Source of the DNA: a virus
Taxonomy: Duplodnaviria > Heunggongvirae > Uroviricota > Caudoviricetes
Length of the DNA stretch: 23,513 nucleotides
IMG/VR virus record: IMGVR_UViG_2690315815_000002
Reading direction: 5' to 3' (one strand)
The notes below the pieces were generated by a model. It was not told the DNA's origin, did not search any database, and saw nothing but the letters and a program-made list of their open reading frames with translations. The translations under genes were made by a program, and so were the position numbers. Shown piece by piece: positions 1 through 16,637 of this stretch. Each line of letters starts with the position of its first letter. Within the stretch, counting starts at the first letter, position 1.

Positions 1-324
1 TCATCTGCCGGGGTGATAATCAGGCGCGTGGGTGTTGTAATTGGCACCAATCACATCAAGGTCATTACCGGCGGCACAGGCCAGCATCACCGCCCGTGCG
101 GCCTCATTCACACGCTGACGCCAGATAAGCTCACGATAAGCATTTTCCTCCAGCAGTTTGACGAGAGGCTCAGATTCCAGTGTCAGGGTACGGGCGACCG
201 CCTCCTGCTGGTCTTCCGGGTAAAGGGAAATCAGTGTCGCCTTGCGTTCGGCAAGAATGGTTTCAAAGTCCAGCTCCTCGACCACATCCGGTGCGGGTAG
301 CTGGTTCAGGTCGATAATCGGCAT
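1..324 (-). pseudogene. J: baseplate assembly protein J (gpJ), N-terminal part; frame broken near nt 30 so the ORF stops at 1-3 while another frame continues past the window edge
   Basis: ORF 1..324 begins MPIIDLNQLPAPDVVEELDFE, which I recognise as the P2 gpJ N-terminus; after GANYNT it hits a stop, whereas the adjacent frame reads on as TRLIITPADD without a stop. Confidence 0.8.
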
Positions 325-328
325 GGTT

Positions 329-675
329 TCAACTCACAGGGATGGTTAACGAAAGTGGCTGGCCGGTGTCGTTGTGCTGGCCGGTTAACGTGACCGTCAT
401 TCGCCCGTCAAAACTGCGCTCAGTGGTGACGGATGACAGGGTGACGCGGGGTTCCCATTTCAGCACCGCCATGTAACAGGCGACCTTAATCTGCAACTCA
501 AGCGCGGGGTCTGCGGCTGGTCAATCATTGACGCCAGCAACGAGCCGTAATCACGACGCATCACCCGTGAGCCGACCGGTGTGCGCAGGATATCGCCGAT
601 ACTCTGGCTGATATGCTCAAGGTCAGTGACAGTCAGGCCATCACTGCGATTCATTCCGAGATAACGCGCTGTCAT
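329..675 (-). pseudogene. W: baseplate assembly protein W (gpW), frameshifted near nt 505
   Basis: ORF 460..675 matches P2 gpW through ...MIDQPQTP then diverges (RLSCRLRS...*); the adjacent frame continues ALELQIKVACYMAVLKWEPRVTLS...LTIPVS to a stop at 329-331. Confidence 0.85.
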
Positions 676-1302
676 AAAGGACTCCCGGTTGTGCCGCCGC
701 TGTCGCCGGGGTGTTTATGGGTATGCAGTACCTTACCGTTTGATGAGAGTTCACCGCCGGTGTGTTCAATGTTGCCGCGCATCGTCCCGCCCTTCTGCAC
801 TTCCAGCGTGCCGGTGATCAGCTTGTTTGTGCAGACCACCTCCGGCGTGTCCAGAGTGATGCGGGTTGATGCTTTCACCATGACCACCGGCACCGTGGCA
901 GTAACAGAATCAGAAGCCGTCACGCTGGCCGTTTTAATTCCGCTTACCGTAAGCGCACTGGTTTCGGGTTCATACTCAATCACCGCCCCGTCAGGGAAAC
1001 GGATATGCAGGGCATCCGCCGACGCAGACGGCGCAGGGTTATCGCCGGAATAAATCCCCGGCAGAACGAACGCCGTGTCGAGTTCACCCCACGGCCAGAA
1101 TCAGCACCTGTTCCCCCACGGAAGGTGCCCACCATGTGCGCGAACCGGCGCGATGGGTCAGCCACTGAAGCCAGTCGGTGCACATGCCGCCGGTCTGCAC
1201 ACGGCAGCGACCGGCGTTAAGGTCGGTTTCAACGATAATGCCGGTACGAATCATGTTGCGCAGTGCGCGCGCGAGTTCCTGAATATTTGCGAGAGTGTCC
1301 AT
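672..1302 (-). pseudogene. V: baseplate spike/puncturing protein V (gpV), frameshifted near nt 1086-1090
   Basis: N-terminal part (MDTLANIQELARAL...VLILAVG) is in ORF 1084..1362; C-terminal part (GELDTAFVLPGIY...VIEYEPETS...GSPL) is in the frame of ORF 672..983; the two frames meet at a C-run at 1087-1090. Confidence 0.85.
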
Positions 1303-1621
1303 GCATGTGAGATTGCACAATATATAAAAAGTTATGCTATCTGGATTCATTTGTAGAACCACCAGACAACATTCAAGGAGAGCGTAATGTCAGCTATAAT
1401 GTGACTAATGTGTGGGAAGCTAATCGTTTTGTATCTTTTGGTCTTTGCAGTATTAGCATTTTTTAGCTTTGGTAAAAGTAACCTTATGAGGGCTTATTGC
1501 ACATTATTTCAAATTTGGATATTCAGACAAAAAATTAAAAAGACTGGACCGCGAGTGGCGCGACATTCAACTATTTAAAATACTTAACGGAATCAATGTA
1601 TCAGGCATCGAAGATGTGAGA

Positions 1622-1942
1622 ATGATACAGCAGGGGCTGATTGATGGAAAACTAAAAACATCGGATTTTTTCCTTACTCGCTTCTGGGGAGACATAACAG
1701 AACCGCCATGCATCACAAAAACAATGAGTGCAGTCCTGGCCGGAATTCTTTATATTATCTTCGCATGTTGCATACACAACGAGCAATCTGCCATAGTAGA
1801 GGATGCCATAGCCATACCATATAAAAATATGATGTACCATGTTTATAATGACAAGGTTCTTTTGTTCTCCGACAATAAAACAGATAAGTTCTATAAGCTT
1901 TTAGCATTGCCGATTGCAAGAGACTGCAGAACACTTTTGTAA
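1622..1942 (+). CDS. hypothetical protein in the V-S insert; start and integrity uncertain
   Basis: ORF 1616..1942 (108 aa) in the track; no clear RBS; the same frame upstream is open and protein-like, suggesting a disrupted longer gene. Confidence 0.25.
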   Translation: MIQQGLIDGKLKTSDFFLTRFWGDITEPPCITKTMSAVLAGILYIIFACCIHNEQSAIVEDAIAIPYKNMMYHVYNDKVLLFSDNKTDKFYKLLALPIARDCRTLL

Positions 1943-2003
1943 CAGACACACTTCCTGCAATCGCCTGCAATAAGCTCTTACAGCTAAACGAGGAGGACTC
2001 CGA

Positions 2004-2172
2004 ATGGTTAAGTCAGGAGATTAAAGATAATAACAGCCACAGAAAAACATTATTAATAATATCCCTAATCTATTTCATTTCAGGTCTATTTATATTCCTG
2101 TCATACACAAAATTCCTTTACGCCAATAAGAAGGTTTTAGAATACAAAGCATCAAATAAAAACCACTCATAA
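2004..2172 (+). pseudogene. small single-TM membrane protein (about 56 aa if repaired), frameshifted after codon 6
   Basis: Strong SD AGGAGGA at 1991-1997, ATG at 2004, then stop after MVKSGD; the +1 frame continues IKDNNSHRKTLLIISLIYFISGLFIFLSYTKFLYANKKVLEYKASNKNHS to a stop at 2170-2172. Confidence 0.4.
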
Positions 2173-2241
2173 ACCTCTAAACATTGCGACCAGCACGGCC
2201 GCTCAATGTTTAATTGCGCATCAGCCTCTGCCTGGATAAAA

Positions 2242-2693
2242 CTAACGCTCAAGGTGAGCCAGGATAATCTCTTCAATCATCTGCACATCCTCACCGGTAA
2301 AGCCGAGCAGAGGACGCGCCGGATAATCAGTTTTCTTACCGTCTTTCCGGGTTTCTTCCGACAGACCGAACTGATGCACACTGGCAATTTCGGCGACTTC
2401 CCGCCGTAAAACTCCATTGATGCCTGTTCCGGGCTGGCGCGGATATGCAAAAAACGACTGGTGATAAGTTTCGCAAACATTTTTCGCTTAACACGACCGG
2501 TCTTTTTTCTGGCGCTCTGCTGCTGGCGTGGCACGTAGGGTGTGCCGTCCGGGGCTTTCTGTGCCATCACCCGACGCTGCTGACTCTGACGCAGACGTTT
2601 CGCCAGTTCGGCGCTCAGTCGCCGACGCCCTGACGGTGACAGCGATTCAGTCAGTCCGGTCAGCCGGTCTTCAAAACGCTTAAACTCATTCAT
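2242..2693 (-). pseudogene. S: tail completion protein S (gpS), frameshifted near nt 2388-2390
   Basis: ORF 2277..2693 matches P2 gpS through ...MEFYGGKSPK then diverges; the adjacent frame reads IASVHQFGLSEETRKDGKKTDYPARPLLGFTGEDVQMIEEIILAHLER to a stop at 2242-2244; the frames meet at a TTT run. Confidence 0.85.
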
Positions 2694-3153
2694 CCCACTT
2701 GCTCACCAGTTCGCCATTGATATACAGCTCCATCGGGCGGGTAACCGGCTCCGGCGGCGGAGGTTCCGGGATATTCTTCACATGTAGCGCGCCTTCCACC
2801 TCACTGACCAGCGTGCGCTCGGTCAGCATCAGGCTGATGCTGATATCAAAGCTGCTGTCATTGTTGATGTCTGCATAAAACGTGAAGCCCTTTTTCTGGC
2901 CTTCGTCGGTGGTCATGATGTCTGGCTGATTTTCCCGCAGCCACGCCAGCACCGGCACAATGAGCAGGTCAAAATCACCGGTAAAGTCGGTCACAATCAC
3001 ATTGAGCGTGTAACGCTTTTCGAATGACATAGACGTCGCCAGTGTGGAGGCAATACTCCCGTTATCCACGAATATCCGCAGCATCTCGGGACTGGTTTTC
3101 AGCACCGTGACGGCGTCAGTCAGCGCCCTGCGCAGGCTGTCGGGTTTGAGCAT
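2686..3153 (-). CDS. R: tail completion protein R (gpR)
   Basis: 155-aa ORF recognisable as P2 gpR; start overlaps the S start region as in P2. Confidence 0.9.
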   Translation of the reverse strand: MLKPDSLRRALTDAVTVLKTSPEMLRIFVDNGSIASTLATSMSFEKRYTLNVIVTDFTGDFDLLIVPVLAWLRENQPDIMTTDEGQKKGFTFYADINNDSSFDISISLMLTERTLVSEVEGALHVKNIPEPPPPEPVTRPMELYINGELVSKWDE

Positions 3154-3406
3154 CGTTTTCGTCCTGACAGTGTTTAATCATTTTTACCTGGCTGGCACAG
3201 CGTGCCAGCGCGTTCTCAAGCTGCCGGATATCAGCACTTAAATCGCCGTTCGTCTGCGGGTCACTGCCCGGCATCGGGCAAAGGCTCACTTTCGGGCAGG
3301 CGTTGGCGACAATCACTGGCGTCGGTGCAGGCCGGACGCTGGTGCAACCGGCGCACAACATCAGGCAGGTCAGCGCCGTACCAGCGGCGAAAATCTTCGT
3401 TTTCAT
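3116..3406 (-). CDS. lysC: LysC, Rz1-like outer-membrane lipoprotein spanin
   Basis: Internal start MKTKIFAAGTALTCLMLCAGC (signal peptide plus lipobox Cys) inside ORF 3116..3523, overlapping the 3' end of lysB in another frame. Confidence 0.75.
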   Translation of the reverse strand: MKTKIFAAGTALTCLMLCAGCTSVRPAPTPVIVANACPKVSLCPMPGSDPQTNGDLSADIRQLENALARCASQVKMIKHCQDENDAQTRQPAQGAD

Positions 3407-3686
3407 TGAGTAACCTCGTGATGGTTTTCTCGCGCTGTGCTTCACGCTTCGCGGCGTTCTCCAGTTCCTGACGCAGTACCACCTGCGCCAGCTCGTTTTT
3501 GTCTGCTCTGGTGAGGGCAACATGAAGCTGATTTTTCAGCATGGTGATAGTCGTCTGCTGCCCGCTGGCGACGTTGTTCGCCCTGTCCAGCGAGGCGCGC
3601 AGGCTGGCATTTTTATGTTTCACCAGAAACAGCCCCGCCACCGCCAGCGATAACAACACAACCAGTACAATCATCAGCTTTGACAT
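3261..3686 (-). CDS. lysB: LysB, Rz-like inner-membrane spanin
   Basis: 141-aa ORF with N-terminal TM helix (MSKLMIVLVVLLSLAVAGLFLV) and coiled-coil-like remainder; P2 LysB position. Confidence 0.88.
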   Translation of the reverse strand: MSKLMIVLVVLLSLAVAGLFLVKHKNASLRASLDRANNVASGQQTTITMLKNQLHVALTRADKNELAQVVLRQELENAAKREAQREKTITRLLNENEDFRRWYGADLPDVVRRLHQRPACTDASDCRQRLPESEPLPDAGQ

Positions 3687-4099
3687 GGTTCCCGCCCCTC
3701 AAAACGCTGACGGCAGGCCGTACGTATCAGCCGGAAGAACACCGACGCCACGAGGTAAATCAGCGCAGTAAAAATCCACCCGGCAGCGACCAGCGAGATA
3801 AACGTCGCCACCATCACCACCAGAGCCGCCGCCCGTCTGCGCCACGGCACCGGCTGCAAAAACAGCGACGTGACAATCTTCACGGCCAGCGATTCCGGCG
3901 GCAGCTCCCGCCCGTAGCGTTCCAGCACATACTCCGTGGCATACACGCCGACACCACCGGCAACCACACAGATAACCGTCGCCAGAATCGCCCAGGTGGC
4001 GACAAAACTGACGGCCACGCTCTGCGGGTAAATCAGGGACAGTGCCAGCATCAGCGCCAGCGACACGTTCAGCATCAGTGAAAGGGATAATTTCTTCAT
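3674..4099 (-). CDS. lysA: LysA, lysis-timing membrane protein
   Basis: 141-aa multi-TM ORF at the P2 LysA position. Confidence 0.85.
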   Translation of the reverse strand: MKKLSLSLMLNVSLALMLALSLIYPQSVAVSFVATWAILATVICVVAGGVGVYATEYVLERYGRELPPESLAVKIVTSLFLQPVPWRRRAAALVVMVATFISLVAAGWIFTALIYLVASVFFRLIRTACRQRFEGREPCQS

Positions 4100-4113
4100 G
4101 GTGTTTACTCCGT

Positions 4114-4611
4114 TTAAGCCGGTACGCCGCCGGCGGTACGCCAGACGGTGACCAGTTTTTCCAGTGAATGCTCACGCTGACCGTAACCGGCACCCGGCAG
4201 GGACGCCCAGATATTGCGACAGCGTGAAATGGCGCGCTCAATGCGTCCCGCCCGGATGTCATCCAGTGCACCGCGTTCGCGGATCAACTGAATGGCGAGC
4301 CTGTCCTGTGACAACGGACTGAAATCCGGCAGGGCAAGCTGTTTGCGGTAGTGCGGCCAGAACAGGTAAAGCTGCTGATAGCGACCGGAGGCCGTGGATT
4401 TTTCACCGCGACGGTTAAACACCTTCGCCGGTCGGCCATGCGCGAACGGGTGGTCACTGTAGTCGGTGAAAATTTCCGGCTTTCCGTCCAGTCCGGTGAC
4501 TATCACGTCATAGCCCCGGTTTTTCGTCAGCGGATGATTCGCCGTCCCTTCGGACACGGCCAGCATGTCGAGAAAGGCGGCGATATTCTGATGCGTGTTA
4601 ATTACCGGCAT
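4114..4611 (-). CDS. K: endolysin (P2 gpK, lysozyme)
   Basis: 165-aa ORF recognisable as P2 gpK. Confidence 0.9.
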   Translation of the reverse strand: MPVINTHQNIAAFLDMLAVSEGTANHPLTKNRGYDVIVTGLDGKPEIFTDYSDHPFAHGRPAKVFNRRGEKSTASGRYQQLYLFWPHYRKQLALPDFSPLSQDRLAIQLIRERGALDDIRAGRIERAISRCRNIWASLPGAGYGQREHSLEKLVTVWRTAGGVPA

Positions 4612-4892
4612 TACGGTTTCCCCCTGCCCTTAAAGCGGCGCTGAATGGCAATCTCAATCACCTGATAACCGGCGATACCCAGCATGGAACCGATGCCGCA
4701 CACCGCAGGCAGTGACAGGTCAGGAAACTGCACCAGAACAACACCGGCAACCATCGAGACAAAACCGCCGAGCAACATGCGCCCGATAAACAGACGCGGG
4801 GTGATGGGTTCACCACCGGCAAGCACCTTGCCGACAACAATCAGCACCCCAATCATGAAAAGCGACAGGACGCTTTTTTCTTCTGCTGTCAT
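4611..4892 (-). CDS. Y: holin (P2 gpY)
   Basis: 93-aa ORF with TM segments; stop/start overlap with K. Confidence 0.9.
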   Translation of the reverse strand: MTAEEKSVLSLFMIGVLIVVGKVLAGGEPITPRLFIGRMLLGGFVSMVAGVVLVQFPDLSLPAVCGIGSMLGIAGYQVIEIAIQRRFKGRGKP

Positions 4893-4895
4893 GCG

Positions 4896-5099
4896 TTACT
4901 CCCACAGATTGACAGTTTCAGCCACGGGCGCGGTCTGAACGTCGGGCAGTTCGACGGCGGTGCCGTGTGGCAGCACCGCACCCAGTTCAGCCAGTCCCGG
5001 ATTTGCGGCGAGCACGGTCTCAACCACGCCCTCAGTGCGCCCGTAATACCGGACACAAATGGCGTCGAGCGTGTCACCCTGTAGCGCAAAGGTCTTCAT
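4896..5099 (-). CDS. X: tail protein X (gpX)
   Basis: Internal start MKTFALQGDTLDAICVRYYGRTEG in ORF 4896..5168 gives the 67-aa P2 gpX; start overlaps the L stop. Confidence 0.85.
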   Translation of the reverse strand: MKTFALQGDTLDAICVRYYGRTEGVVETVLAANPGLAELGAVLPHGTAVELPDVQTAPVAETVNLWE

Positions 5100-5608
5100 C
5101 AGATTTGACTCACGATGCAGCGCGGCTTGTCCTGGATACGCGCCACCGCCCAGCGCATATCCCGCCACAGTTCATCAATGGTGCTGTCAATGCTGTCGGC
5201 CTTCTTGTCGCCTTTCGCACTGGCATCCACGCCGCGATAACGCTCATAAAGCGACGCGGTCGCCATCGCACACACGGCGCGCTCGTAGTAAAAAACTTTG
5301 ATGCTTTCACCGTCGATGTCGTCCGCCGGAACGTCCGCCAGACGCGTAAAACCGGCGGCAATTTTCTGTTCGCGGTACTCGTACAGCTCCGCATTCGTCT
5401 CCGCCATGCCTGACTTGATGGCCTCACGCAGACGGGCGGGGGCGACGGTCTGCTCAAGGCGCATACGTTCCCGGACGCGCTTCGGGTCGATATCGGGAAA
5501 AAAGAACGTGTTTTTAATCACCGGCTCGTCGCCTGCCGGTTGCGGGATGACCACCGTACCCTCACCGGACACGGGAGCCTCCTTTCGCGGAATAATCAGC
5601 GTCATCAT
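5099..5608 (-). CDS. L: head completion/stabilisation protein L (gpL)
   Basis: Start at MMTLIIPRKEAP within ORF 5099..5668 gives 169 aa, the P2 gpL length. Confidence 0.88.
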   Translation of the reverse strand: MMTLIIPRKEAPVSGEGTVVIPQPAGDEPVIKNTFFFPDIDPKRVRERMRLEQTVAPARLREAIKSGMAETNAELYEYREQKIAAGFTRLADVPADDIDGESIKVFYYERAVCAMATASLYERYRGVDASAKGDKKADSIDSTIDELWRDMRWAVARIQDKPRCIVSQI

Positions 5609-5707
5609 GACTACCTCTGAAAAGTCGGGCGGTGGACGCCGGTGCAGTGTCAGGTGATTCACCCTCACTGACCGGCGTGCCGCCCTGGCGCGGGGCGCAT
5701 TCGGTTG

Positions 5708-6451
5708 TTAACTGGCTTTCTTTTTCGGGCGTCCACGTTTTGCCGGTGTCACGCTCCGGGTCTTACGCGGGGCGCGGGTGACCGCTTTGGGCTGCGGCTC
5801 CGGCTTCGGTTTCAGCTCCCGCTCCAGTCGTTCAATCTCTTTTTTGACGCCTGCCTGACAGTCGAGCTGTGTCGCACGTTGCAGGTGAGCCAGCGCACCG
5901 GCGGCATCACCAGCGTCACGCAGAAACAGACCGGTGATTTTGTGCAGCTTTGCGCGCACTTCATCAGGCATGTCAGCCGTGGCGGTCAGTTCAAGGGTCT
6001 CCGTCAGCAGGCGGATATCCACAGATTCACCGGCAGCGTGGGCACGCATGGCCGCGAGTGCGACCTCCTCGGTGAACATGTACGGCGGGGTGCGGCGGTG
6101 TTTACCCGGCATGGTCAGACCGTACTTCAGGGCATAACGGGCAATCTCCAGCGCACCGGCAATATCGCCGGTATCCAGACGCCACAGCATGACCGTCATC
6201 AGAATGTCATCCTGTGCACCTTTGCCCTGCTCCAGCACACCGTTCACCCACGGCAACCAGAACGGCAGCAGTTCGCGCTTTTTCGCGGCCTTAAGCTCTT
6301 TTGAATAAATCGCTTTCAGTGTGCGCTGGTCTGCGGCCAGCTTGACCAGCATCTGCTCATAGACAGTTGCATGTCGCAGCGGGGCGGCTTCCCGCTGCGC
6401 GGTCATCGCTGCCGAGACCCGCATCATGTGGCGCTGTGCGGGACTCGTCAT
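5708..6451 (-). CDS. M: terminase endonuclease (small) subunit M (gpM)
   Basis: 247-aa ORF recognisable as P2 gpM, basic C-terminal tail. Confidence 0.9.
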   Translation of the reverse strand: MTSPAQRHMMRVSAAMTAQREAAPLRHATVYEQMLVKLAADQRTLKAIYSKELKAAKKRELLPFWLPWVNGVLEQGKGAQDDILMTVMLWRLDTGDIAGALEIARYALKYGLTMPGKHRRTPPYMFTEEVALAAMRAHAAGESVDIRLLTETLELTATADMPDEVRAKLHKITGLFLRDAGDAAGALAHLQRATQLDCQAGVKKEIERLERELKPKPEPQPKAVTRAPRKTRSVTPAKRGRPKKKAS

Positions 6452-6454
6452 CGG

Positions 6455-7528
6455 TTACGCTCCCGGCTCTGCGGTCGCCTTAGCCGGTGTGGAGAAATCA
6501 CCGACCTTGATTTTTTCCACCAGACAACCGGCGGCGTAGTCTTCCACCACGTAATCAATGTTCATTGACTCGTAGTTCTCCACGCGGTCGAGTTTCGGGT
6601 TTTCCACAATCACGCGGCGATGGCTGTCATCCATGTAGTAGATAGACAGGTTTTCCAGCTTCGTGATGAGCATCGCATCCGCCGGGAAGTACGGGACGCG
6701 TACCGCTGGCAGGTTACCGATGCGTTTCTGGCTGATGATGACGTCAGCAGCCAGCATTTCGCTGTTATCCTGCTCCCTGTTGACGATGGGGAAATACTTG
6801 TCCGCCAGTAGCTGACGCCCCACAATCACCACAAGGTCAGGGTCTTCCTGATACCACGGCTCAATCAGGTTGTTGGTCGCATCCATCACCAGTGCATCGA
6901 GGCTGGCATAATCACCGCCCTTACCCACGCGGATGACCTCAGAGGTGGTGCTGCCTTCCTCGTCAGTGACCTTGCTCATCACGCGAGCCGGGGCTTCATT
7001 GCGGTATTTCTGCAGCCAGCCGACCGCCACATCCTGCAGCATCGGATTGCTGCTGCGGTCAGAGGTTTCGGCACGCTTCACGCCGTTAAAACCGGCCATG
7101 ATGAAATCAAGGGACTGGCGTTTGATAATGGCGTTACGGATACGGAGCTGGAAATCCTGATAACGCGCCCACAGGTCCAGCGTTTTGTAGCGGATATAAA
7201 AATCGAAGTTAATCTGGTCGCATTCGTACTTGTTTGACGCCAGCTTCGAGAAGTCCTTCGGCTGACGCTCGGTGCCACCGGCGGTGTCGGTGGTGCTGGC
7301 GATGGAGCCGGTGACACCAATACCAATTTTTTCCCCTTTCATTTCGCTGACCGGCACAATGTTGATGCGGGTCAGAAAGTCAGAGGACTCCTGCATGGTG
7401 TTCATCAGGGTCTGGGTGACCGACGGTTCAACAGTGAATTTTTTCGACACATCACCGGCATCAATGCCGTTCAGTTCGGCAACACGGGACAGGTAAGCAT
7501 TAAATTTAAAGCGGGTTTCCTGGCGCAT
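6455..7528 (-). CDS. N: major capsid protein N (gpN)
   Basis: 357-aa ORF recognisable as P2 gpN. Confidence 0.92.
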   Translation of the reverse strand: MRQETRFKFNAYLSRVAELNGIDAGDVSKKFTVEPSVTQTLMNTMQESSDFLTRINIVPVSEMKGEKIGIGVTGSIASTTDTAGGTERQPKDFSKLASNKYECDQINFDFYIRYKTLDLWARYQDFQLRIRNAIIKRQSLDFIMAGFNGVKRAETSDRSSNPMLQDVAVGWLQKYRNEAPARVMSKVTDEEGSTTSEVIRVGKGGDYASLDALVMDATNNLIEPWYQEDPDLVVIVGRQLLADKYFPIVNREQDNSEMLAADVIISQKRIGNLPAVRVPYFPADAMLITKLENLSIYYMDDSHRRVIVENPKLDRVENYESMNIDYVVEDYAAGCLVEKIKVGDFSTPAKATAEPGA

Positions 7529-7586
7529 AGTTTTTCCTGAAATTAAGGGTTAATCGTGAAGGTTTTCCCGGACTGACTGACGCCGG

Positions 7587-8441
7587 TCAGCAGTTCGTCA
7601 TCAGGCCGTCACCGCCACCACCGGTGGCCTTGCTGCGGCGCTGCTGGGTCAGACTTTCGGTGTGGTCGAGACTGTTTTTCAGGCGGGTGAATGCCTGGCT
7701 GGTTTCATCCGCCCTGTCAGTCACCGCCTGCTTAAGTGCGGAAAAGGCGGTTTCCATCTCAGCGAGGCGCTGCTCAGTGGCGCTCAGTTTTTCCTGCACA
7801 TGTTCAGCAACAGCGGTCACCGCTTCATGCACGTCATTCAGACGGGCGTCATCGCTGGCCTGTTTGCGGCCAAAAATGGATTTCACCTTTTCGGTCAGGG
7901 CGGTGAACACGGTTTCAGGCAGGTCTTCAAATTCCAGCTCAACGGGCGTTGCCACTGAAATCAGGTTTTCAGGGCTTAATTTGAAGCGGTTCAGAGGGTT
8001 GTGTTTTGCCGTGCGGCAGAATTCCAGGTATTCCGTGCCGAGGCTTGCCGGGTCATCGGTGACGGCCAGCCCCACCAGATAACATTTGCCGGTGTTGGCA
8101 AAGTTCGGCTGAATTTCCATTGAGGTGTAGACCTTCTGCGCGGCCTTGTTCATCGCGATAAGGTCATCGGTCGGGGTGATTTTCGCAAACAGCGCCCATT
8201 TGCCTTTCAGCGCCGAATCATCGTCAATCTTTTCGGCCTTCAGTTCGACCACATCGCCATAACGCTTAAAAATACCGTCAGGCAGGATGCCGCGCAGATG
8301 TTCCAGGTTAATGCGGCAACCATAGACTCGCGGGTCAAAGGTTTCGGCCATTTCCTGAATATCCTGCGCACTGATGACACGCCCGTCACAGGTGTCACCC
8401 TCAACGCCGATACGAAAGAATTTTGAGACTTTTTTTGCCAT
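7587..8441 (-). CDS. O: capsid scaffolding protein O (gpO); native upstream region replaced by an IS end
   Basis: Start at MAKKVSKFFRIGVEGDT within ORF 7587..8468 gives 284 aa, the P2 gpO length; start codon lies inside the IS target duplication. Confidence 0.88.
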   Translation of the reverse strand: MAKKVSKFFRIGVEGDTCDGRVISAQDIQEMAETFDPRVYGCRINLEHLRGILPDGIFKRYGDVVELKAEKIDDDSALKGKWALFAKITPTDDLIAMNKAAQKVYTSMEIQPNFANTGKCYLVGLAVTDDPASLGTEYLEFCRTAKHNPLNRFKLSPENLISVATPVELEFEDLPETVFTALTEKVKSIFGRKQASDDARLNDVHEAVTAVAEHVQEKLSATEQRLAEMETAFSALKQAVTDRADETSQAFTRLKNSLDHTESLTQQRRSKATGGGGDGLMTNC

Positions 8442-8442
8442 T
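8438..8442. repeat. target site duplication CCATT (left copy)
   Basis: CCATT immediately outside the left IS terminus; identical copy at 11024-11028. Confidence 0.75.
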
Positions 8443-8635
8443 TGCGTATTTTCATGAAAGGAGATCACTCAATAACTTCCATCGAGATCGGGTAATAACA
8501 TTTGAACAGATCGCTGAATAACATCGATGGAGATCACTTTTGACTCATTTTGTTATTCAGTGATCTCCATCAATGTTATTGGAACTTCACAGGTGTGTTG
8601 ATCTGTATCTTTTGCCATTCCGGTAAAGGATACCT

Positions 8636-10177
8636 ATGCCAACAGTTCCAATTTCTATGAGAAAACTTAAAGAAATTCTTAGGCTTAAATACGGTGTTGG
8701 ACTCAGCCATCGACAAATTGGTCGTAGTCTTGCAATCTCCCCTTCCGTTGTATCCAGATATGCTAATCGGGCGGCTCAACTTGGCATAAAGCAGTGGCCC
8801 TTACCTACAGGATGGGATGATACAAAACTAAAACATGCGTTCCTTCAGACCCAGGTTAAGATGAAGAAGCACTCTCTGCCTGACTGGGCTACAGTACACC
8901 GGGAACTGCGTAATAAATGCGTGACGCTGCAGCTACTCTGGGAAGAATACTGTGAGCGTAATCCAGGCGGTTTTTACAGCTATAACCATTACTGCCGGAT
9001 GTACCGTGAATGGCTCAAAACCACTTCACCATCAATGCGTCAGGTACATAAAGCTGGCGAAAAACTTTTCGTTGATTACTGTGGACCTACCGTTGGCGTT
9101 ACCGACCCTGAGACCGGAGAAATAAGAACTGCTCAGGTCATCGTAGCTGTTCTCGGGGCATCAAGTTACACATGGGCAGAGGCCACCTGGTCTCAGCAGC
9201 TTGAAGACTGGGTGATGAGTCATGTTCGCTGCTTCCAGTGGTTGGGTGGCGTTCCTGAACTTGTTGTTCCGGACAATCTGAAAAGCGCCACATCCAGGGC
9301 ATGTAAGTATGATCCTGACGTTAACCCTACCTACCAGCAGATGCTTGAGCATTATAATGTCGCAGTTTTGCCTGCGCGGCCACGTAAACCGAAAGATAAA
9401 GCCAAAGCTGAAGTTGGCGTTCAGGTTGTTGAACGCTGGATCATGGCCCGAATCAGGCATGAGATCTTCTACAGCCTTGCATCGCTTAATCAGCGCATTC
9501 GGGAGTTGCTGGAAAGACTGAATAACAAAATAATGCAGAAGTTGGGTTATTCACGTGCAGAACTCTTCATCCAGCTTGATAAACCCGCACTGAAGCCTCT
9601 TCCTGAAGCCAGTTACAGTTACACCCTGGTGAAGAAAGTCAGAGTTCATGCCGATTACCACGTGGAAATCGACAAACATTACTACTCGGTTCCATGTTCG
9701 CTGTTAGGCCAGCAACTGGAAGCATGGATCTCCGGAGAACTGGTAAGACTCTTCAATCAGGGGCAGGAGGTTGCTGTGCACCCGCGCAAGCGTACTTATG
9801 GCTACAGTACCCGCAACGAGCACATGCCTGAAGCTCATCGACAGCATGCCACCTGGACGCCAGAGCGTCTTCTGGAATGGGCGGGGCACATAGGCAGTGA
9901 AACTCATAGTTATGTGCTTCATATACTGAACTCTCGTCCACATCCGGAACAAAGCTATCGCTTCTGCCTTGGACTCCTGAACCTTCATAAAAAATACAGT
10001 AAAGCCAGACTTAATGCAGCATGTGCAAGAGCTCTGAAAACAAAGGTATGGCGTCTGTCAGGTATTAAATCGATCCTGGAAAAAGGTCTGGATAAACAAC
10101 CTGTTCAGGATCCAAAACCAGATCTGTTATCCACGATGGAACACGAAAACGTACGCGGCAGTGAGTATTACCACTGA
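8636..10177 (+). CDS. istA: IS21-family transposase IstA
   Basis: 513-aa ORF with the appearance of an IS21-family IstA (N-terminal HTH-like region then catalytic core); paired with an IstB-type ATPase. Confidence 0.85.
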   Translation: MPTVPISMRKLKEILRLKYGVGLSHRQIGRSLAISPSVVSRYANRAAQLGIKQWPLPTGWDDTKLKHAFLQTQVKMKKHSLPDWATVHRELRNKCVTLQLLWEEYCERNPGGFYSYNHYCRMYREWLKTTSPSMRQVHKAGEKLFVDYCGPTVGVTDPETGEIRTAQVIVAVLGASSYTWAEATWSQQLEDWVMSHVRCFQWLGGVPELVVPDNLKSATSRACKYDPDVNPTYQQMLEHYNVAVLPARPRKPKDKAKAEVGVQVVERWIMARIRHEIFYSLASLNQRIRELLERLNNKIMQKLGYSRAELFIQLDKPALKPLPEASYSYTLVKKVRVHADYHVEIDKHYYSVPCSLLGQQLEAWISGELVRLFNQGQEVAVHPRKRTYGYSTRNEHMPEAHRQHATWTPERLLEWAGHIGSETHSYVLHILNSRPHPEQSYRFCLGLLNLHKKYSKARLNAACARALKTKVWRLSGIKSILEKGLDKQPVQDPKPDLLSTMEHENVRGSEYYH

Positions 10178-10188
10178 TACGGGATCCA

Positions 10189-10938
10189 ATGATGAATCAT
10201 CTTTACGAACAACTGACCGCACTTAAACTCACCGGCTTCCGTGATGCGCTTAAAAAGCAACTTGCTCAACCGGGCACATACCAGGAGCTGGGCTTCGAAG
10301 AACGCCTGTCATTACTGACAGCAGAAGAACTAACCTGCCGTGAAAACAGGAAGGCAGAGCGTCTGATCAAACATGCACGGTTCAGACTTAATGCTGAGTT
10401 ATCAAAGCTGGATTATCGTAACAATAGAGGGCTGGACAGGGCCCTCATCCGTTCACTCAGTCAGGGAAACTGGTTAACCCTGAAACAAAATATTTTACTG
10501 ACCGGGGCCACCGGCAGCGGTAAAACGTTCCTGGCATGTGCACTTGGTCATAATGCCTGCCGACAGGGATACAAGGTCTACTATTATCGCCTTAAAGCGC
10601 TGATGGAACAGTGCTATCAGGGGCATGCTGATGGAAGATACAGCAAACTTTTGACCAGGCTGAATAATAGCGATCTGCTGCTTCTGGATGACTGGGGGCT
10701 GGAACCTCTCTCATCAGAACAGCGTAGCGACCTGCTGGAAATAGTGGATCTGATGTACCAACGAGGCTCAATCATCGTAGTGAGCCAGTTGCCGGTGGAA
10801 AACTGGTACAAAATGATCGGAGACTCCACACATGCGGATGCCATCCTAGATCGACTGGTTCATGGCAGTATCAAGATCGAACTTAAAGGAGAATCAATGC
10901 GGAAAATACAATCTCCGTTGACCGAAGGAGATCAGTGA
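10189..10938 (+). CDS. istB: IS21-family ATP-binding helper protein IstB
   Basis: 249-aa ORF with Walker A (GATGSGKT) and Walker B (LLLLDDWG) motifs, as in IstB/DnaC-like AAA+ proteins. Confidence 0.88.
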   Translation: MMNHLYEQLTALKLTGFRDALKKQLAQPGTYQELGFEERLSLLTAEELTCRENRKAERLIKHARFRLNAELSKLDYRNNRGLDRALIRSLSQGNWLTLKQNILLTGATGSGKTFLACALGHNACRQGYKVYYYRLKALMEQCYQGHADGRYSKLLTRLNNSDLLLLDDWGLEPLSSEQRSDLLEIVDLMYQRGSIIVVSQLPVENWYKMIGDSTHADAILDRLVHGSIKIELKGESMRKIQSPLTEGDQ

Positions 10939-11023
10939 AGGTAATTTAAAAACGGTTCTGTGAAAGTGACACGAACCGATCTCCATCGATGTTACTCACC
11001 GATCTCCTTCACGGTAATACGCA

Positions 11024-14034: not shown

Positions 14035-14168
14035 ACATCCCGTCATCACGCCCTCACCACCGCACAAAACACCCCGCAGACACACCAACGCCCCAGCAGG
14101 CCGACTAAATGCCATCACGACGCGCTGAGACGCTGAAAAAATAAAATCAGCACCACCGCCAGCGCGCA

Positions 14169-14187
14169 GTGCTTTCCCCGCCTCGCC
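14169..14187 (-). other. cos site (19-nt cohesive end) of the P2-like phage
   Basis: GTGCTTTCCCCGCCTCGCC is the exact reverse complement of the P2 cohesive end GGCGAGGCGGGGAAAGCAC as I recall it; correct position just beyond Q. Confidence 0.8.
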
Positions 14188-14379
14188 CGCCCGCTTCATG
14201 GGGCGGTTTTAATGCAGTTGCATAGATACTATGGATCCGCACCAGTCCTGACCGCACGCAGCCTGAACGGACATCCCCGACGCATGCAAAAACATTCACT
14301 TGTTGCATGCAACGGCTTATTTAATGACAAATCAACTTAAATTTACAAAATCCACAGGTATGGATACTTTGCGAACATG

Positions 14380-14411
14380 ATAGGCTTACGAGAATTATCG
14401 AGCCTATTTTT
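14380..14411 (+). terminator. hairpin plus T-run immediately upstream of the RBS of the 313-aa gene
   Basis: ATAGGCT (14380-14386) pairs with AGCCTAT (14401-14407), 14-nt loop, then TTTTT; GGAG RBS at 14415-14418. Confidence 0.3.
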
Positions 14412-14425
14412 GACCGGAGCAATGT

Positions 14426-15367
14426 ATGCAAGGTAAAGTTGACGAACAGCAATCCAATGATATTGAAGCTGAGTTTGGATACTATCCAGTAGAAGTTAAC
14501 GTTGAAACTGATGATTTTTCTTTACTTACTTTACCCGGTCTAGCGGAAAAAACAAATCTTATAAACAATCACAGAAATGTTATTAACGGTTGGATATACC
14601 CAGGAAACCAAGAAGTATATAACCTCAATGGAGGCATATCCACAATGCCTTTTAGCCAACGAGTATTTGGCTTACCCAAAACACACTCACTAAAATTAAA
14701 AAATACATCTTCACTAGAAACTCTCAATTTTGCTGTGTGGTGTCTGTCTTTTTTCAAAGGGATAAGATTAACAACTACTGATGCCGGTTTTTTAGACGCA
14801 ACCCCAATAAAACCCAGCAAATTAACTGACTTTATTCTGGTCAAGTGCTCTGAAAAAGAGGTTATAGAATTAGCACTCAAATACATGTCTAGCGAGACAA
14901 AAACCAAACACGCACCAATAAATATAGCAGCAATAGTGCATGCACTATTTTTATCCCAAAACCCACAATACCTTAGCTTCGAAAAATTCCAGTATCTTTA
15001 TATGGCACTGGATAGTTGCTTTGCTTTAACATGGGCAGAAAAGAACAAGTGTACAGAAAAGACTCTAAATCACTCCAGGCGCTTGAAGTGGATCTGCAAA
15101 ACTTATGGAATACCACGACCATCATGGGTTACAGGCAAAAAAAACATTACAAACATCCGCAATGAAAACTTTCATGAAGCTATGTTTCATGGTCAACCAC
15201 TTGGCTTTACCACTATTAACAATTATCAATATGGAGATGACATATTACAACAAATGCAGGCTTTAATTTGCCGATTACTCGTTGCGATTCTTGGTGTTAA
15301 CGCCCCCGATTACATCACATCGAACGTGAACTCTCGTGAATATCATTCACTAACATTAAAAATATAA
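14426..15367 (+). CDS. hypothetical protein, 313 aa, AT-rich, with C-terminal R-x4-H motif (possible HEPN-like nuclease)
   Basis: Complete ORF with GGAG RBS 7 nt upstream; motif R245-NENF-H250 (IRNENFHEAMFHG) at nt 15158-15175; no resemblance to P2 core genes. Confidence 0.6.
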   Translation: MQGKVDEQQSNDIEAEFGYYPVEVNVETDDFSLLTLPGLAEKTNLINNHRNVINGWIYPGNQEVYNLNGGISTMPFSQRVFGLPKTHSLKLKNTSSLETLNFAVWCLSFFKGIRLTTTDAGFLDATPIKPSKLTDFILVKCSEKEVIELALKYMSSETKTKHAPINIAAIVHALFLSQNPQYLSFEKFQYLYMALDSCFALTWAEKNKCTEKTLNHSRRLKWICKTYGIPRPSWVTGKKNITNIRNENFHEAMFHGQPLGFTTINNYQYGDDILQQMQALICRLLVAILGVNAPDYITSNVNSREYHSLTLKI

Positions 15368-15382
15368 AACGACTAAAAATAC

Positions 15383-15408
15383 TCTCCAGTAACAATAAGT
15401 ACTGGAGA
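15383..15408. terminator. hairpin between the convergent 313-aa gene and the membrane-protein gene
   Basis: TCTCCAGTA / TACTGGAGA 9-bp stem with 8-nt loop; T-run follows on the minus strand. Confidence 0.4.
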
Positions 15409-15449
15409 TGTATTATCACTAAAACCAATAAAAAATCACAACTAATGCT

Positions 15450-16049
15450 TTACTTAGATAGTTTGTCTTTAATTATATTCAGAACACCAATTATTAATTC
15501 ACTGATTGGCGTGGCCAACTCAATAGTATTAGATGTCGACTTTGTTCTAAAGTCTTTATCTGTCGGGTGTTGAAATGCTGATTTAAGAAGAGTCAAAAGC
15601 AAAGTTAAACCCACACCAAGGATGAATGCAACAATAGCTATTAGAGAACTGGCCGATAACCAATCGGTGGATAAACCAGAAATAGATTTTCTAACTTTAT
15701 TAGTGTCTGAAGATGGTGTTATCCTCTCATCAGCCATCTTCGGATCCGAAGATAAAGCAGAACATTTTTCTGCTGAAACACAAGTTTGTGTATCTACTTT
15801 TTGTGTTATCGCTGCGGCAATACTGCTTTTCGCTTCCAGCAAGCCATTTCCAACAGCCAAAGCAAAGTTAAGCCCCTGCCATAGAAATGTACAAGCAAAA
15901 CAAAGCACAACGGCAGAGAGCACTAATCGCATACTTCTACGCTCTATACCATCCCGTCTATCTCGCCTTATAAGGATATCAGGATCTGAATCGCCCTTAG
16001 GAGTGGTTCCTTGCTCTGGGGACTGTCCAGATAAATCAATATCAGCCAT
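15450..16049 (-). CDS. hypothetical 2-TM membrane protein (199 aa from the first ATG; 160 aa if the internal ATG at 15932 is used)
   Basis: Two hydrophobic helices (LVLSAVVLCFACTFLWQGLNFALAV and LIAIVAFILGVGLTLLLTLL) separated by a Ser/Ala-rich linker; co-directional with and downstream of the peptidase gene. Confidence 0.5.
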   Translation of the reverse strand: MADIDLSGQSPEQGTTPKGDSDPDILIRRDRRDGIERRSMRLVLSAVVLCFACTFLWQGLNFALAVGNGLLEAKSSIAAAITQKVDTQTCVSAEKCSALSSDPKMADERITPSSDTNKVRKSISGLSTDWLSASSLIAIVAFILGVGLTLLLTLLKSAFQHPTDKDFRTKSTSNTIELATPISELIIGVLNIIKDKLSK

Positions 16050-16090
16050 AAAAAAATCACCCTTACATGTACAAACGTAAAGGTGATTTT
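16050..16090 (-). terminator. intrinsic terminator between peptidase and membrane-protein genes, directly abutting the downstream ATG
   Basis: On the minus strand: UCACCUUUAC / GUAAGGGUGA 10-bp stem (one G-U pair), 10-nt loop, then seven U, followed immediately by the ATG at 16049; the 3' arm contains the only SD-like sequence (AAGGGUG). Confidence 0.6.
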
Positions 16091-16115
16091 AAACAGGTTA
16101 AAAGTTAAAGGCTAA

Positions 16116-16601
16116 TTAATAAGCCATTCCTAAGCTCTTTAAGCGCCAATGCATAGCGGCTTCTGATACATTAAAGATGCTTGCTAATCTCAAAGTGCTA
16201 TCAATACCTTCTCTGGATACCAATTGACGTATAGCAGACTCAGGCATTAACAACTCAGCAGCAAACTTGTTTGCTTCAACCTCACGGTAATCACGAGCAC
16301 CTGTTGAATAATTCCCGACATTATCCCGATGGTACTCTCCGTCCTGGGTATGCCCCAGCACATGATGACCTAACTCGTGTGCAACAGTAAAACGTTGACG
16401 ATTAGAATGTTCACTAGAATCAAAATAAATCCTATGGACACCCTTTTTGATGACAGCCAGACCGCTTAACCCATCGTTGTTATAAGCCGATTCCTCAAGT
16501 GCTTCAACACGAGCACCCCACGCTTTAGCAAGCTTAAACGGATCGACAGGTAGTCGGCGATCCCAATAGCGGTCAAGCAGTTTTTTAGCTGCATAGCTCA
16601 T
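16116..16601 (-). CDS. ImmA/IrrE-family (M78) zinc metallopeptidase, 161 aa, with no adjacent HTH partner
   Basis: HEXXH motif HELGHHVLGH and the downstream EANKFAAELLMP signature typical of ImmA/IrrE peptidases; strong SD AGGAGG 5 nt upstream of the ATG. Confidence 0.8.
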   Translation of the reverse strand: MSYAAKKLLDRYWDRRLPVDPFKLAKAWGARVEALEESAYNNDGLSGLAVIKKGVHRIYFDSSEHSNRQRFTVAHELGHHVLGHTQDGEYHRDNVGNYSTGARDYREVEANKFAAELLMPESAIRQLVSREGIDSTLRLASIFNVSEAAMHWRLKSLGMAY

Positions 16602-16637
16602 GGTTGCCTCCTACGTTAAAAAAGTTAAGTATGCACA

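What the first reader, a model, noticed from the sequence alone, without database searches (positions are those of the whole stretch)
1303..2241. Second AT-rich cargo insert between tail genes V and S (P2 orf30 position)
About 940 bp of AT-rich sequence separates V from S, which are otherwise part of one contiguous tail operon. P2 itself carries a horizontally acquired ORF (orf30) at this junction. Here the insert carries at least one small gene with a strong RBS encoding a predicted single-TM peptide, now frameshifted, and a 108-aa ORF of uncertain reality, both transcribed against the tail operon. Small membrane proteins embedded in late operons are typical morons such as superinfection exclusion or host-modifying factors.
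Basis: partly seen in the sequence, partly recalled or inferred. Interest (0 to 1): 0.45.

Follow-up and report, generated by a model that had tools for sequence, protein, structure and literature searches.

The report
Phage P2 orf30 membrane-protein cassette
The AT-rich stretch between tail genes V and S is this prophage's copy of the long-known but never characterised phage P2 gene orf30: one 261-codon gene for a three-pass membrane protein, not two small genes, and its apparent frameshifts are most likely sequence errors.

Summary
Window 1303-2241 is a 939-bp block of 37% GC between V and S, whose flanks are 58% GC. About 70% of close P2 relatives have only a 66-nt spacer there.

It is not a new insert "at the orf30 position". 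It is orf30 itself: 90% nucleotide identity to P2, and identical apart from indels to an E. coli ST131-type prophage.

Four one-base indels break it. There are no substitutions, and all 11 indel events of the first 8.4 kb lie in window 1-2388, so poor sequence is the likelier cause.

The block also holds the Ogr-binding site of the V promoter and a two-way terminator hairpin.

New here:
- Orf30 belongs to a very divergent family (phrog_2407, linked to Pfam DUF6216) with three TM segments and two conserved periplasmic cysteines.
- All 19 distant relatives found on viral contigs sit at the same V-S junction.
- That junction is a cargo hotspot (75 of 128 unique junctions hold other cargo), rich in anti-phage genes.

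Function is untested. My best guess, at about 0.35, is a prophage-expressed envelope protein that blocks other phages.

The parts
672..1302 (-). Left boundary: baseplate spike gene V. Here it carries a 2-nt deletion at 1088 and a 3-nt deletion at 1145.
   Evidence: Identical, apart from those indels, to WP_001599799.1 'phage baseplate assembly protein V' in NZ_CP023849.
1303..2241 (.). The whole orf30 cassette: 939 bp here, 940 bp in intact relatives, 37.4% GC. It replaces the 66-nt S-V spacer found in cassette-free relatives.
   Evidence: Composition. Matches P2 9368-10307 at 90.1% and E. coli 4/0 at 99.3%. Empty versus filled junctions compared.
1345..1372 (-). Ogr (late activator) binding site of the V promoter. 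It contains TGT-N11-ACA and the conserved CACAAC half-site.
   Evidence: Position transferred from the AF063097 annotation 'activator binding site; activation of pV promoter'. The CACAAC-type motif lies 55-70 nt upstream of the V ATG in all 17 loci compared.
1375..1380 (+). Ribosome-binding site AAGGAG of orf30, 6 nt upstream of the ATG.
   Evidence: Read directly from the sequence.
1387..2172 (+). orf30 coding region: 261 codons plus stop in intact alleles. Here four 1-base indels (1389, 1417, 1490, 1895) spread it over three reading frames, and it returns to the original frame and stop codon.
   Evidence: The 19 related alleles (18 distinct) are all intact 261-codon ORFs with dN/dS 0.45. The protein hits phrog_2407 at 2.6e-137.
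1408..1578 (+). Its first part (to about 1490) encodes Orf30 residues 11-35, including TM1. The rest is out of frame.
   Evidence: tblastn of intact Orf30 against the window.
1616..1942 (+). Up to 1895 it is Orf30 residues about 77-170 (cytoplasmic domain, TM2 and part of the periplasmic domain). Its tail is out of frame.
2178..2212 (.). Two-way terminator hairpin shared by orf30 and the O-to-S late operon. A 2-nt deletion at 2186 weakens it in this window.
   Evidence: Annotated in P2 as 'putative rho-independent terminator for O operon'. The intact hairpin folds at -20.9 kcal/mol (+ strand, z -6.3) and -26.4 (- strand, z -5.6). The window version folds at -11.0 and -16.5.
2242..2693 (-). Right boundary: tail completion gene S. 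Here it carries a 1-nt deletion at 2388.

Best explanation
**Identity (shown, about 0.97).** Window 1303-2241 is the orf30 cassette of a P2-type prophage. It contains one gene on the + strand (1387-2172), the Ogr-dependent V promoter facing the other way, and a shared terminator hairpin.

**The protein (shown).** Orf30 is a 261-aa inner-membrane protein.
- Predicted topology: short N-terminus outside; TM1 at about 10-30; a basic cytoplasmic domain of about 80 aa with the motif D-QLF(K/R)..NG(I/V)NV..DA; TM2 at about 112-132; a periplasmic beta-rich domain of about 90 aa with two conserved cysteines (C177, C194); TM3 at about 221-240; a basic cytoplasmic tail.
- It belongs to a highly divergent family (phrog_2407, linked to Pfam DUF6216).

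**State of this copy (inferred, about 0.7).** The four frameshifts are sequencing or assembly errors, and the gene is intact in the real prophage.

**Mechanism (inferred, about 0.35).**
- Orf30 is a lysogenic-conversion (moron) protein made from the prophage while the late promoters are silent.
- It acts alone at the cell envelope against other infecting phages. Its variable periplasmic and TM parts would meet an incoming phage component. The result would be blocked genome entry or premature collapse of the membrane.
- Alleles are exchanged between related phages at the S-V junction.
For: **Identity**
- 90.1% nt identity over all 939 bases to P2 orf30 and its flanks, and 99.3% to E. coli prophages where one 786-bp CDS is annotated.
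- phrog_2407 hit at 2.6e-137.

**The gene is real**
- 19 alleles (18 distinct) are all intact 261 codons.
- dN/dS is 0.45 overall, 0.28 in the cytoplasmic domain and 0.13 in residues 196-220.

**Error-like frameshifts**
- 0 substitutions against 11 indel events in 8.4 kb, and all 11 lie in window 1-2388. They also hit J, W, V and S.
- None of the 464 complete E. coli genomes that carry the block exceeds 99.3% identity, which equals the window's seven gapped positions. So none of the best-matching genomes carries these indels.

**Family and architecture**
- A profile of close Orf30 sequences finds 42 relatives.
- 10 of 25 members hit DUF6216, and one is named a DUF6216 family protein.
- Three hydrophobic segments, the charge bias and the two cysteines are conserved across 45 members.
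- The AF2 model has pLDDT 78.

**Cargo behaviour**
- The block is absent from 55 of 78 close relatives.
- It is present in about 27% of P2-type copies in complete E. coli genomes: 482 of 1810 places.
- All 19 distant homologues on viral contigs lie at the same V-S site, antisense.
- Median pairwise identity is 28% for Orf30-like proteins against 72% for V and 56% for S. L112 versus L108/L110 has V at 86-87% and S at 93-95%, but Orf30-like at only 25%.

**Defence by location**
- Other cargo at this junction includes retron type VI RT (1e-104), Beta_protein/PD-Lambda-2_C, PDC-S19, PDC-S21, PDC-S33 (RelA/SpoT), PDC-S59 (AAA, one with TIR) and toxin-antitoxin-like pairs.
- Relatives also sit in the int-att cargo site of 186-like prophages and are kept in prophage remnants.

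**Not a late gene**
- It is antisense to the late operons.
- The Ogr site ends 15 nt before its ATG, too close to serve a promoter reading into orf30.
Against: - No experiment and no homology links Orf30 to any function. Pfam, NCBIfam and PADLOC give no hit for Orf30, and no meaningful hit for any of the 45 family members in NCBIfam or PADLOC.
- No convincing sigma-70 promoter for orf30 was found, so expression in the lysogen is assumed.
- dN/dS of 0.45 shows constraint but not positive selection. The periplasmic domain (0.36) is not the fastest-evolving part.
- Guilt by location is weak evidence. The same junction also holds cargo of unknown or non-defence type.
- From my own knowledge of the classical literature: P2 lysogens can be superinfected by P2, so any exclusion would not act against P2 itself.
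- The prophage here carries an IS (ISEc12) between genes O and P. It may therefore be defective, which leaves real pseudogenisation possible.
Confidence: 0.4

Rival explanations
1. Orf30-family proteins serve the phage's own lytic cycle. They would be a non-essential membrane accessory for lysis timing, tail or baseplate assembly at the membrane, or genome delivery, rather than for defence.
For: - Family members keep the same place next to V in P2-like phages whose V proteins are only 64-86% identical.
- In several loci the gene is packed so tightly that its 3' end abuts or overlaps the end of S.
- The lysis genes lie just upstream of R and S.
Against: - It is antisense to both late operons, and no activator site is placed to drive it.
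- It is absent from about 70% of close relatives and annotated 'nonessential' in P2.
- Relatives occur beside int, in prophage remnants and in a chromosomal islet without phage genes.
Confidence: 0.12
2. Orf30 is a host-fitness moron unrelated to phage defence. Examples would be immunity to a membrane-acting bacteriocin or secreted effector, an envelope-stress or colonisation factor, or another change to the cell surface.
For: - It is a small multi-pass inner-membrane protein with a periplasmic disulfide domain, like many immunity proteins.
- It is retained after prophage decay in Pantoea and Erwinia.
- The equivalent Z/fun site of a P2-like prophage in CFT073 carries the virulence-linked acyltransferase neaT (PMC3573123).
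Against: - There is no conserved partner toxin or effector gene next to any family member.
- It has no enzyme domain.
- The family is almost confined to P2/186-type phages and their remnants.
Confidence: 0.2
3. The copy in this window is a true pseudogene in a decaying prophage, so nothing functional is made here whatever Orf30 does elsewhere.
For: - Four frameshifts lie in orf30, with more in J, W, V and S, and a 2-nt deletion weakens the terminator.
- An ISEc12 element sits between capsid genes O and P.
Against: - There are zero substitutions beside 11 indels.
- All indels are confined to the first 2.4 kb of an otherwise identical 8.4-kb stretch.
- The indels are of mixed type (1-, 2- and 3-nt, not only in homopolymers).
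- None of the best-matching complete E. coli genomes shares any of them.
- This pattern fits local poor sequence quality better than mutation.
Confidence: 0.25
4. One reading: the insert holds two independent small genes, a frameshifted single-TM peptide and a separate 108-aa protein.
For: Both appear as ORFs in the window as given.
Against: - Both are collinear fragments of one 261-aa protein.
- That protein is intact in P2, in the intact relatives examined here (only some of the 464 E. coli genomes that carry the block were inspected) and in 19 of 19 sampled alleles.
Confidence: 0.02

Closest known systems
Bacteriophage P2 orf30 (AAD03281.1; PHROG phrog_2407)
   Same: - Same gene: same site between S and V, same antisense orientation and same 261-codon length.
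- 90% nt identity over the cassette, and 81% aa identity between P2 Orf30 and the intact allele that the window matches.
- Same Ogr site and terminator.
   Different: - This is a different allele: the ST131-type prophage allele WP_001599798.1.
- Differences from P2 are concentrated in residues about 105-190.
- As given, the window copy carries four 1-base indels.
Pfam DUF6216 (PF19723), uncharacterised membrane proteins of Gammaproteobacteria
   Same: - Same length class (about 250-270 aa), three hydrophobic segments and the conserved cysteine pair.
- Intermediate family members hit both the Orf30 profile and DUF6216.
   Different: - Orf30 itself does not reach the Pfam model even at E = 1.
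- The link is transitive, at 17-25% identity.
- DUF6216 has no known function, so the link adds breadth but no mechanism.
Other P2 lysogenic-conversion genes in cargo hotspots (old, tin, Z/fun)
   Same: AT-rich, non-essential genes carried at fixed variable sites of P2-like phages. Related phages hold many alternative genes at those sites (PMC3091744, PMC9122126, PMC13586616).
   Different: - old, tin and fun have demonstrated phage-exclusion phenotypes. orf30 has none reported.
- There is no sequence similarity.
- The S-V site has received little attention as a defence hotspot.
Membrane superinfection-exclusion morons (HK97 gp15, T4 Imm, P22 SieA); comparison from my own knowledge
   Same: Small inner-membrane proteins encoded by prophage or phage accessory genes. 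Some sit among tail genes, and they act alone at the envelope.
   Different: - There is no detectable sequence or fold relationship.
- Orf30 is larger, with three TM segments and two soluble domains.
- Function is untested.

Membership tests
P2 orf30 / phrog_2407 | Full-length sequence similarity to P2 Orf30. | tested here: met
   phrog_2407 hit at E 2.6e-137 over residues 1-261. 81% aa identity between P2 Orf30 and the intact allele. 90.1% nt identity of the window to P2.
P2 orf30 / phrog_2407 | Location between tail genes S and V, transcribed opposite to them. | tested here: met
   Window: V at 672-1302 (-), orf30 at 1387-2172 (+), S at 2242-2693 (-). P2 has the same order.
P2 orf30 / phrog_2407 | Uninterrupted 261-codon reading frame. 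| tested here: not met
   The window copy has four 1-base indels. Removing them restores a sequence identical to WP_001599798.1. The indels are probably sequence errors.
Pfam DUF6216 (PF19723) | Match to the Pfam model at its threshold. | tested here: not met
   Orf30 gives no Pfam hit at E <= 1.
Pfam DUF6216 (PF19723) | Homology through intermediate sequences. | tested here: met
   - A profile of five close Orf30 sequences finds P0036 (precomputed PF19723) at E 3e-7 over residues 15-251.
- 10 of 25 aligned relatives hit PF19723, best 8.7e-7.
- P0055 is named a DUF6216 family protein.
Moron (extra transcription unit in a prophage) | Present in some and absent from other closely related phages at the same site. 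| tested here: met
   Among contigs with gpV at 95-99% identity: 55 empty, 17 orf30 and 6 other. About 27% of P2-type copies in complete E. coli genomes carry it.
Moron (extra transcription unit in a prophage) | Base composition different from the surrounding phage genes. | tested here: met
   37.4% GC against 58% in the flanks.
Moron (extra transcription unit in a prophage) | Own terminator. | tested here: met
   Hairpin 5 nt after the stop codon, -20.9 kcal/mol, z -6.3 in the intact allele. The U-tract is short. The simple terminator scan did not list it.
Moron (extra transcription unit in a prophage) | Own promoter, active in the lysogen. | tested here: inconclusive
   No sigma-70 consensus match upstream of orf30. 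Only weak candidates (TTGCAC-N18-TATCTG) are visible by eye in the 83-nt divergent region. Expression cannot be tested with these tools.
Known anti-phage defence systems (PADLOC-DB v2) | Match to a defence-protein model. | tested here: not met
   No hit for Orf30 at E <= 1. Among 45 family members there are only chance-level hits, E >= 0.003.
Known superinfection-exclusion families (e.g. T4 Imm, SieB in Pfam) | Sequence or fold similarity to a characterised exclusion protein. | tested here: not met
   No Pfam hit. No significant match in PDB or BFVD fold searches.
Known superinfection-exclusion families | Exclusion phenotype: reduced plating or DNA entry of a challenging phage. | not testable with these tools
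   Needs plating and DNA-entry assays.

The most novel reading that the evidence does not exclude
Orf30/phrog_2407 (the DUF6216-related family) is a new class of single-gene, inner-membrane anti-phage protein of P2/186-type prophages, acting by exclusion or abortive infection. It would diversify by allele swapping at the S-V junction. That junction would be a third, largely overlooked defence hotspot of P2-like phages, alongside old/tin and Z/fun.
Probability: 0.3. Interest if true: 0.55.

Novelty: already known. Interest (0 to 1): 0.27.

Why it matters
As a finding in this window it is ordinary. It re-discovers P2 orf30, annotated with the P2 genome (AF063097) as non-essential and of unknown function, and the apparent decay is probably a sequence artefact.

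Two side results may be useful if they hold up.
- Orf30 is one member of a broad, extremely divergent membrane-protein family (phrog_2407, linked to DUF6216). In P2-like phages this family was found only at the V-S junction. It is present in about 9% of complete E. coli genomes and has never been tested.
- The V-S junction carries at least 56 different cargo protein clusters, many matching known or candidate defence models. This makes it a cheap place to look for new anti-phage genes, with Orf30 as an obvious first candidate.

Tried and rejected
**Family libraries.** Pfam, NCBIfam and PADLOC scans of Orf30 and of 45 family members found nothing beyond phrog_2407 and the indirect DUF6216 link.

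**Solved structures by sequence.** A profile search of PDB sequences gave only chance hits.

**Structure prediction.**
- The first AF2 run, with 5 close sequences, gave pLDDT 55.6 and was not used.
- The second run, with 14 sequences, gave pLDDT 78.3.
- The afdb50 library was unavailable.

**Word-indexed protein search.** It reached few relatives (4, 11 and 14 hits), which limited the alignment depth allowed for structure prediction.

**Locus searches.**
Sub-alignments worked.
- The genome-contig scan gave only 3 Enterobacter loci.

**Literature.**
- No paper assigns a function to orf30 or DUF6216.
- The Christie & Calendar P2 review and two late-2026 preprints were not held.
- No supplements were held for the 2026 NAR paper.

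**Promoter scan.** No consensus promoter was found for orf30.

**Ideas considered and dropped.**
- Exclusion of P2 itself: classical double-lysogeny work, known to me rather than tested here, shows that P2 lysogens accept P2 DNA.
- The family being strictly position-locked: relatives also occur beside int and in a chromosomal islet.

Full report
**1. What is in the window**

The window is a P2-type prophage with its late genes on the minus strand:
- J (1-324)
- W (329-675)
- V (672-1302)
- S (2242-2693)
- R (2686-3153)
- then the lysis genes.

Between the V start codon and the S stop codon lie 939 bases, window 1303-2241. They have 37.4% GC, against 58% on either side. The only other stretch of the window this AT-rich is the cargo region between the portal and replication genes.

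**2. Identity**

The 939 bases match bacteriophage P2 (AF063097, positions 9368-10307) end to end at 90.1% identity. The P2 record annotates three things in that interval:
- orf30 ('nonessential'), a 786-bp gene reading away from V
- the activator (Ogr) binding site of the V promoter
- the putative terminator of the O operon.

The best matches are prophages of E. coli ST131-type strains (for example NZ_CP023849) at 99.3%. There the interval holds one annotated CDS, WP_001599798.1, 261 aa, 'hypothetical protein'.

So this is not another insert that happens to occupy the orf30 position. It is orf30.

**3. The gene parse and the frameshifts**

I aligned the window to the intact E. coli allele. 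The span 1387-2172 has no mismatch and four one-base indels: G missing at 1389, extra A at 1417, extra G at 1490, A missing at 1895.

The protein is therefore spread over three frames:
- residues 2-11 at 1389-1418
- residues 11-35 at 1417-1490
- residues 36-170 at 1491-1895
- residues 171-261 at 1897-2169.

The last third, which carries TM3, was missed.

Over the first 8,442 bases the window differs from the E. coli 4/0 prophage by 11 indel events (15 bases) and no substitution. All 11 events lie in window 1-2388. They also break J, W, V and S and remove two bases from the terminator stem.

None of the 464 complete E. coli genomes that carry the block exceeds 99.3% identity, which corresponds exactly to the window's seven gapped positions. 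So none of the best-matching genomes carries these indels.

Indels without substitutions, of mixed length and clustered in one stretch, look like locally poor sequence rather than mutational decay. I put that at about 0.7.

The alternative cannot be excluded. This prophage also carries an IS21-family element (ISEc12) between capsid genes O and P and may be defective.

**4. Is orf30 a real gene?**

Yes.
- Nineteen alleles collected from P2, E. coli and IMG/VR contigs (18 distinct at the nucleotide level, 76-96% aa identity to the window's allele) all keep an uninterrupted 261-codon frame.
- Pooled dN/dS is 0.45.
- Constraint is strongest in the cytoplasmic domain (0.28) and in residues 196-220 (0.13). 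There is almost none in TM1 (1.06).

**5. Is it cargo?**

Yes.
- Among 78 viral contigs whose gpV is 95-99% identical to the window's, 55 have only a 66-nt spacer between S and V, 17 have the orf30 block and 6 have other inserts of 0.8-1.7 kb.
- An alignment of empty and filled junctions shows that homology stops at the S stop codon on one side and at the V start codon on the other.
- In complete E. coli genomes the P2-type V gene is found at 1,810 places in 1,581 genomes. The orf30 block is found at 482 places in 464 genomes, about 27% of copies.
- The literature already lists 'orf30' as one of three regions of P2-like phages where foreign genes are found (PMC3091744). Other genes have been noted there in R18C and in a Burkholderia phage.

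**6. The protein and its family**

Orf30 has no Pfam, NCBIfam or PADLOC match. It falls in phrog_2407, function unknown.

An exhaustive HMMER search with a profile of close Orf30 sequences found 42 representatives. About 25 are full-length proteins of 250-270 aa at 17-38% identity. The link to DUF6216 rests on three results:
- Ten of 25 aligned relatives match Pfam DUF6216.
- One relative is named a DUF6216 protein by NCBI.
- All 45 aligned members match phrog_2407.

I found no paper on DUF6216.

Across the 45 members the architecture is constant:
- a hydrophobic segment at about 10-35
- a basic loop (13.6 K+R against 7.6 D+E) with the most conserved motif of the family
- a second hydrophobic segment at about 112-132
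- a charge-neutral region of about 90 aa with two conserved cysteines (C177 in 37 of 45 members, C194 in 45 of 45)
- a third hydrophobic segment at about 221-240
- a basic tail.

By the positive-inside rule this gives an N-out, C-in topology with a cytoplasmic helical domain and a periplasmic domain that probably holds a disulfide.

**7. Where the family lives**

- All 19 distant homologues recovered from viral contigs lie between V and S of P2-like phages. Each is antisense and starts 80-160 nt from the V start codon. An Enterobacter MAG prophage has the same arrangement.
- Among 19 non-redundant loci the median pairwise identity is 64% for W, 72.5% for V, 56% for S and 66% for R, but only 27.6% for the Orf30-like protein.
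- Orf30-like identity tracks S (Spearman 0.56) and not V (0.07).
- Phages that are nearly the same around the junction can carry very different alleles. L112 against L108/L110 has V at 86-87% and S at 93-95%, but Orf30-like at 25%. This points to exchange of divergent alleles by recombination at the junction.
- A second home is the site just downstream of int in 186-like prophages of Pantoea and Erwinia.
  - There the gene is kept in prophage remnants and can occur twice in tandem.
  - A 2026 survey lists this int-att site as a minor defence hotspot of P2 (PMC13586616).
- In two Enterobacter genomes a relative sits in a small AT-rich chromosomal islet.
- No partner gene is conserved next to it in any of these settings.

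**8. The junction as a hotspot**

I made a less biased sample of 222 P2-like loci, seeded with three different V proteins. It gave 128 distinct junction sequences:
- 31 empty
- 22 with an Orf30-family gene
- 75 with other cargo of 0.56-3.2 kb, falling into at least 56 protein clusters.

Representatives of that cargo match the following:
- PADLOC models for retron type VI reverse transcriptase (1e-104)
- Beta_protein/PD-Lambda-2_C together with 'cll'
- PDC-S19 (DUF3644), PDC-S21 (DUF4917), PDC-S33 (RelA/SpoT domain) and PDC-S59 (AAA, one with TIR).

Other cargo includes a pentapeptide-repeat membrane protein and DUF5677. Some clusters look like HigBA toxin-antitoxin pairs and ImmA peptidases, judged by eye from their sequences. 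The most frequent clusters are unknown, often membrane, proteins.

The defence-hotspot papers I could read centre on the old/tin and Z/fun sites. The S-V site is at most alluded to ('within the tail genes', 'downstream of GpL').

**9. Regulation (inferred)**

- The Ogr site of the V promoter (window 1345-1372) ends 15 nt before the orf30 start codon. A CACAAC-type half-site is conserved 55-70 nt upstream of V in all loci.
- That site is therefore too close to orf30 to activate a promoter reading into it. Any orf30 promoter must overlap the V promoter back-to-back.
- The consensus scan found none, and only weak candidates are visible.
- The hairpin after orf30 is strong in both orientations in intact alleles (-20.9 and -26.4 kcal/mol). 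It serves as the end of the O-to-S operon in P2.
- I infer expression from the prophage at a low or H-NS-limited level, shut off when the V promoter fires. Nothing here tests that.

**10. Most likely function**

Shown:
- a real, mobile, single-gene cassette encoding a three-pass inner-membrane protein with cytoplasmic and periplasmic domains
- carried at sites where P2-type phages keep accessory genes, many of them anti-phage
- very fast divergence and allele exchange
- retention after prophage decay.

Inferred: a lysogenic-conversion protein that acts alone at the envelope against other phages, by exclusion or abortive infection.

I give this about 0.35. The rivals are:
- a host-fitness or immunity role, 0.2
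- a non-essential role in the phage's own lytic cycle, 0.12
- no useful function or something else, the remainder.

**11. Verdict**

The object is the already known P2 orf30, so novelty is 'already known' and interest is low. The family-wide view and the richness of the S-V hotspot are modest by-products worth a bench test.

Noticed in passing
window 1-2388 (positions 30, 505, 1088, 1145, 1326, 1389, 1417, 1490, 1895, 2186, 2388): All 11 indel events that separate window 1-8442 from the closest E. coli prophage fall in the first 2.4 kb. There are no substitutions anywhere in the 8.4 kb. The indels frameshift J, W, V, orf30 and S. This looks like a low-quality stretch, perhaps a contig end, rather than decay.
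   Followed up: partly
window 8443-11023: A 2.6-kb insertion relative to related prophages lies between capsid scaffold gene O and terminase gene P, in the divergent late-promoter region. It is 100% identical to the IS21-family element ISEc12 (istA/istB), which is present in many E. coli genomes. It probably cripples late gene expression.
   Followed up: partly
window ~14100-17735: The classical old/tin cargo hotspot between portal Q and replication gene A is AT-rich (35-41% GC). Its cargo differs from the reference prophage: a 313-aa ORF (14426-15367, +), a 199-aa ORF with hydrophobic stretches, so possibly a membrane protein (15450-16049, -), and a 161-aa ORF with an HELGHH motif, which looks like an ImmA/IrrE-type peptidase (16116-16601, -).
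   Followed up: no
L003-L082 and L117-L272 (S-V junctions of related viral contigs): The S-V junction of P2-like phages is a rich cargo hotspot. 75 of 128 distinct junctions carry non-orf30 cargo in at least 56 protein clusters. These include retron type VI RT, Beta_protein/PD-Lambda-2-like, PDC-S19, S21, S33 and S59, and AAA-TIR proteins, plus HigBA-like pairs judged by eye. Several abundant unknown proteins are also present, often with hydrophobic segments.
   Followed up: partly
L083, L084, L115 (int-adjacent); L086, L114 (remnants): DUF6216-type relatives of Orf30 sit directly downstream of int, with overlapping stop and start, in 186-like prophages inserted by the aroF-tyrA-pheA locus of Pantoea and Erwinia. 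They persist where the prophage has been lost or degraded. L115 has two copies in tandem.
   Followed up: partly
L002, L095-L113 (gene S): Gene S falls into deeply divergent allele classes. The S alleles next to the distant Orf30-like genes are only 41-54% identical to the S of the P2 orf30-type loci (L002, L001, L045, L020). S identity co-varies with the Orf30-like allele (Spearman 0.56) but much less with V (0.20) or R (0.23). This suggests a recombination boundary at or within S.
   Followed up: no
L003 3932-4000 and other 'empty' junctions: The 66-nt S-V spacer of cassette-free phages starts with the GTTGTG activator half-site immediately after the S stop codon. It also contains a GC-rich hairpin (GCCGCCGG-TATGA-CCCGGCGGC) about 15 nt before the V start codon. 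Most loci that carry distant Orf30-like genes keep this type of V promoter region. The P2/E. coli orf30 cassette has an unrelated AT-rich version.
   Followed up: no
L093 7996-8817; L104, L107, L108, L110: Some junctions hold an Orf30-family gene plus one or more further cargo genes. One example is a 273-aa protein with an N-terminal hydrophobic stretch next to it in an Enterobacter MAG, and the inserts in L108 and L110 reach about 2.6 kb.
   Followed up: no
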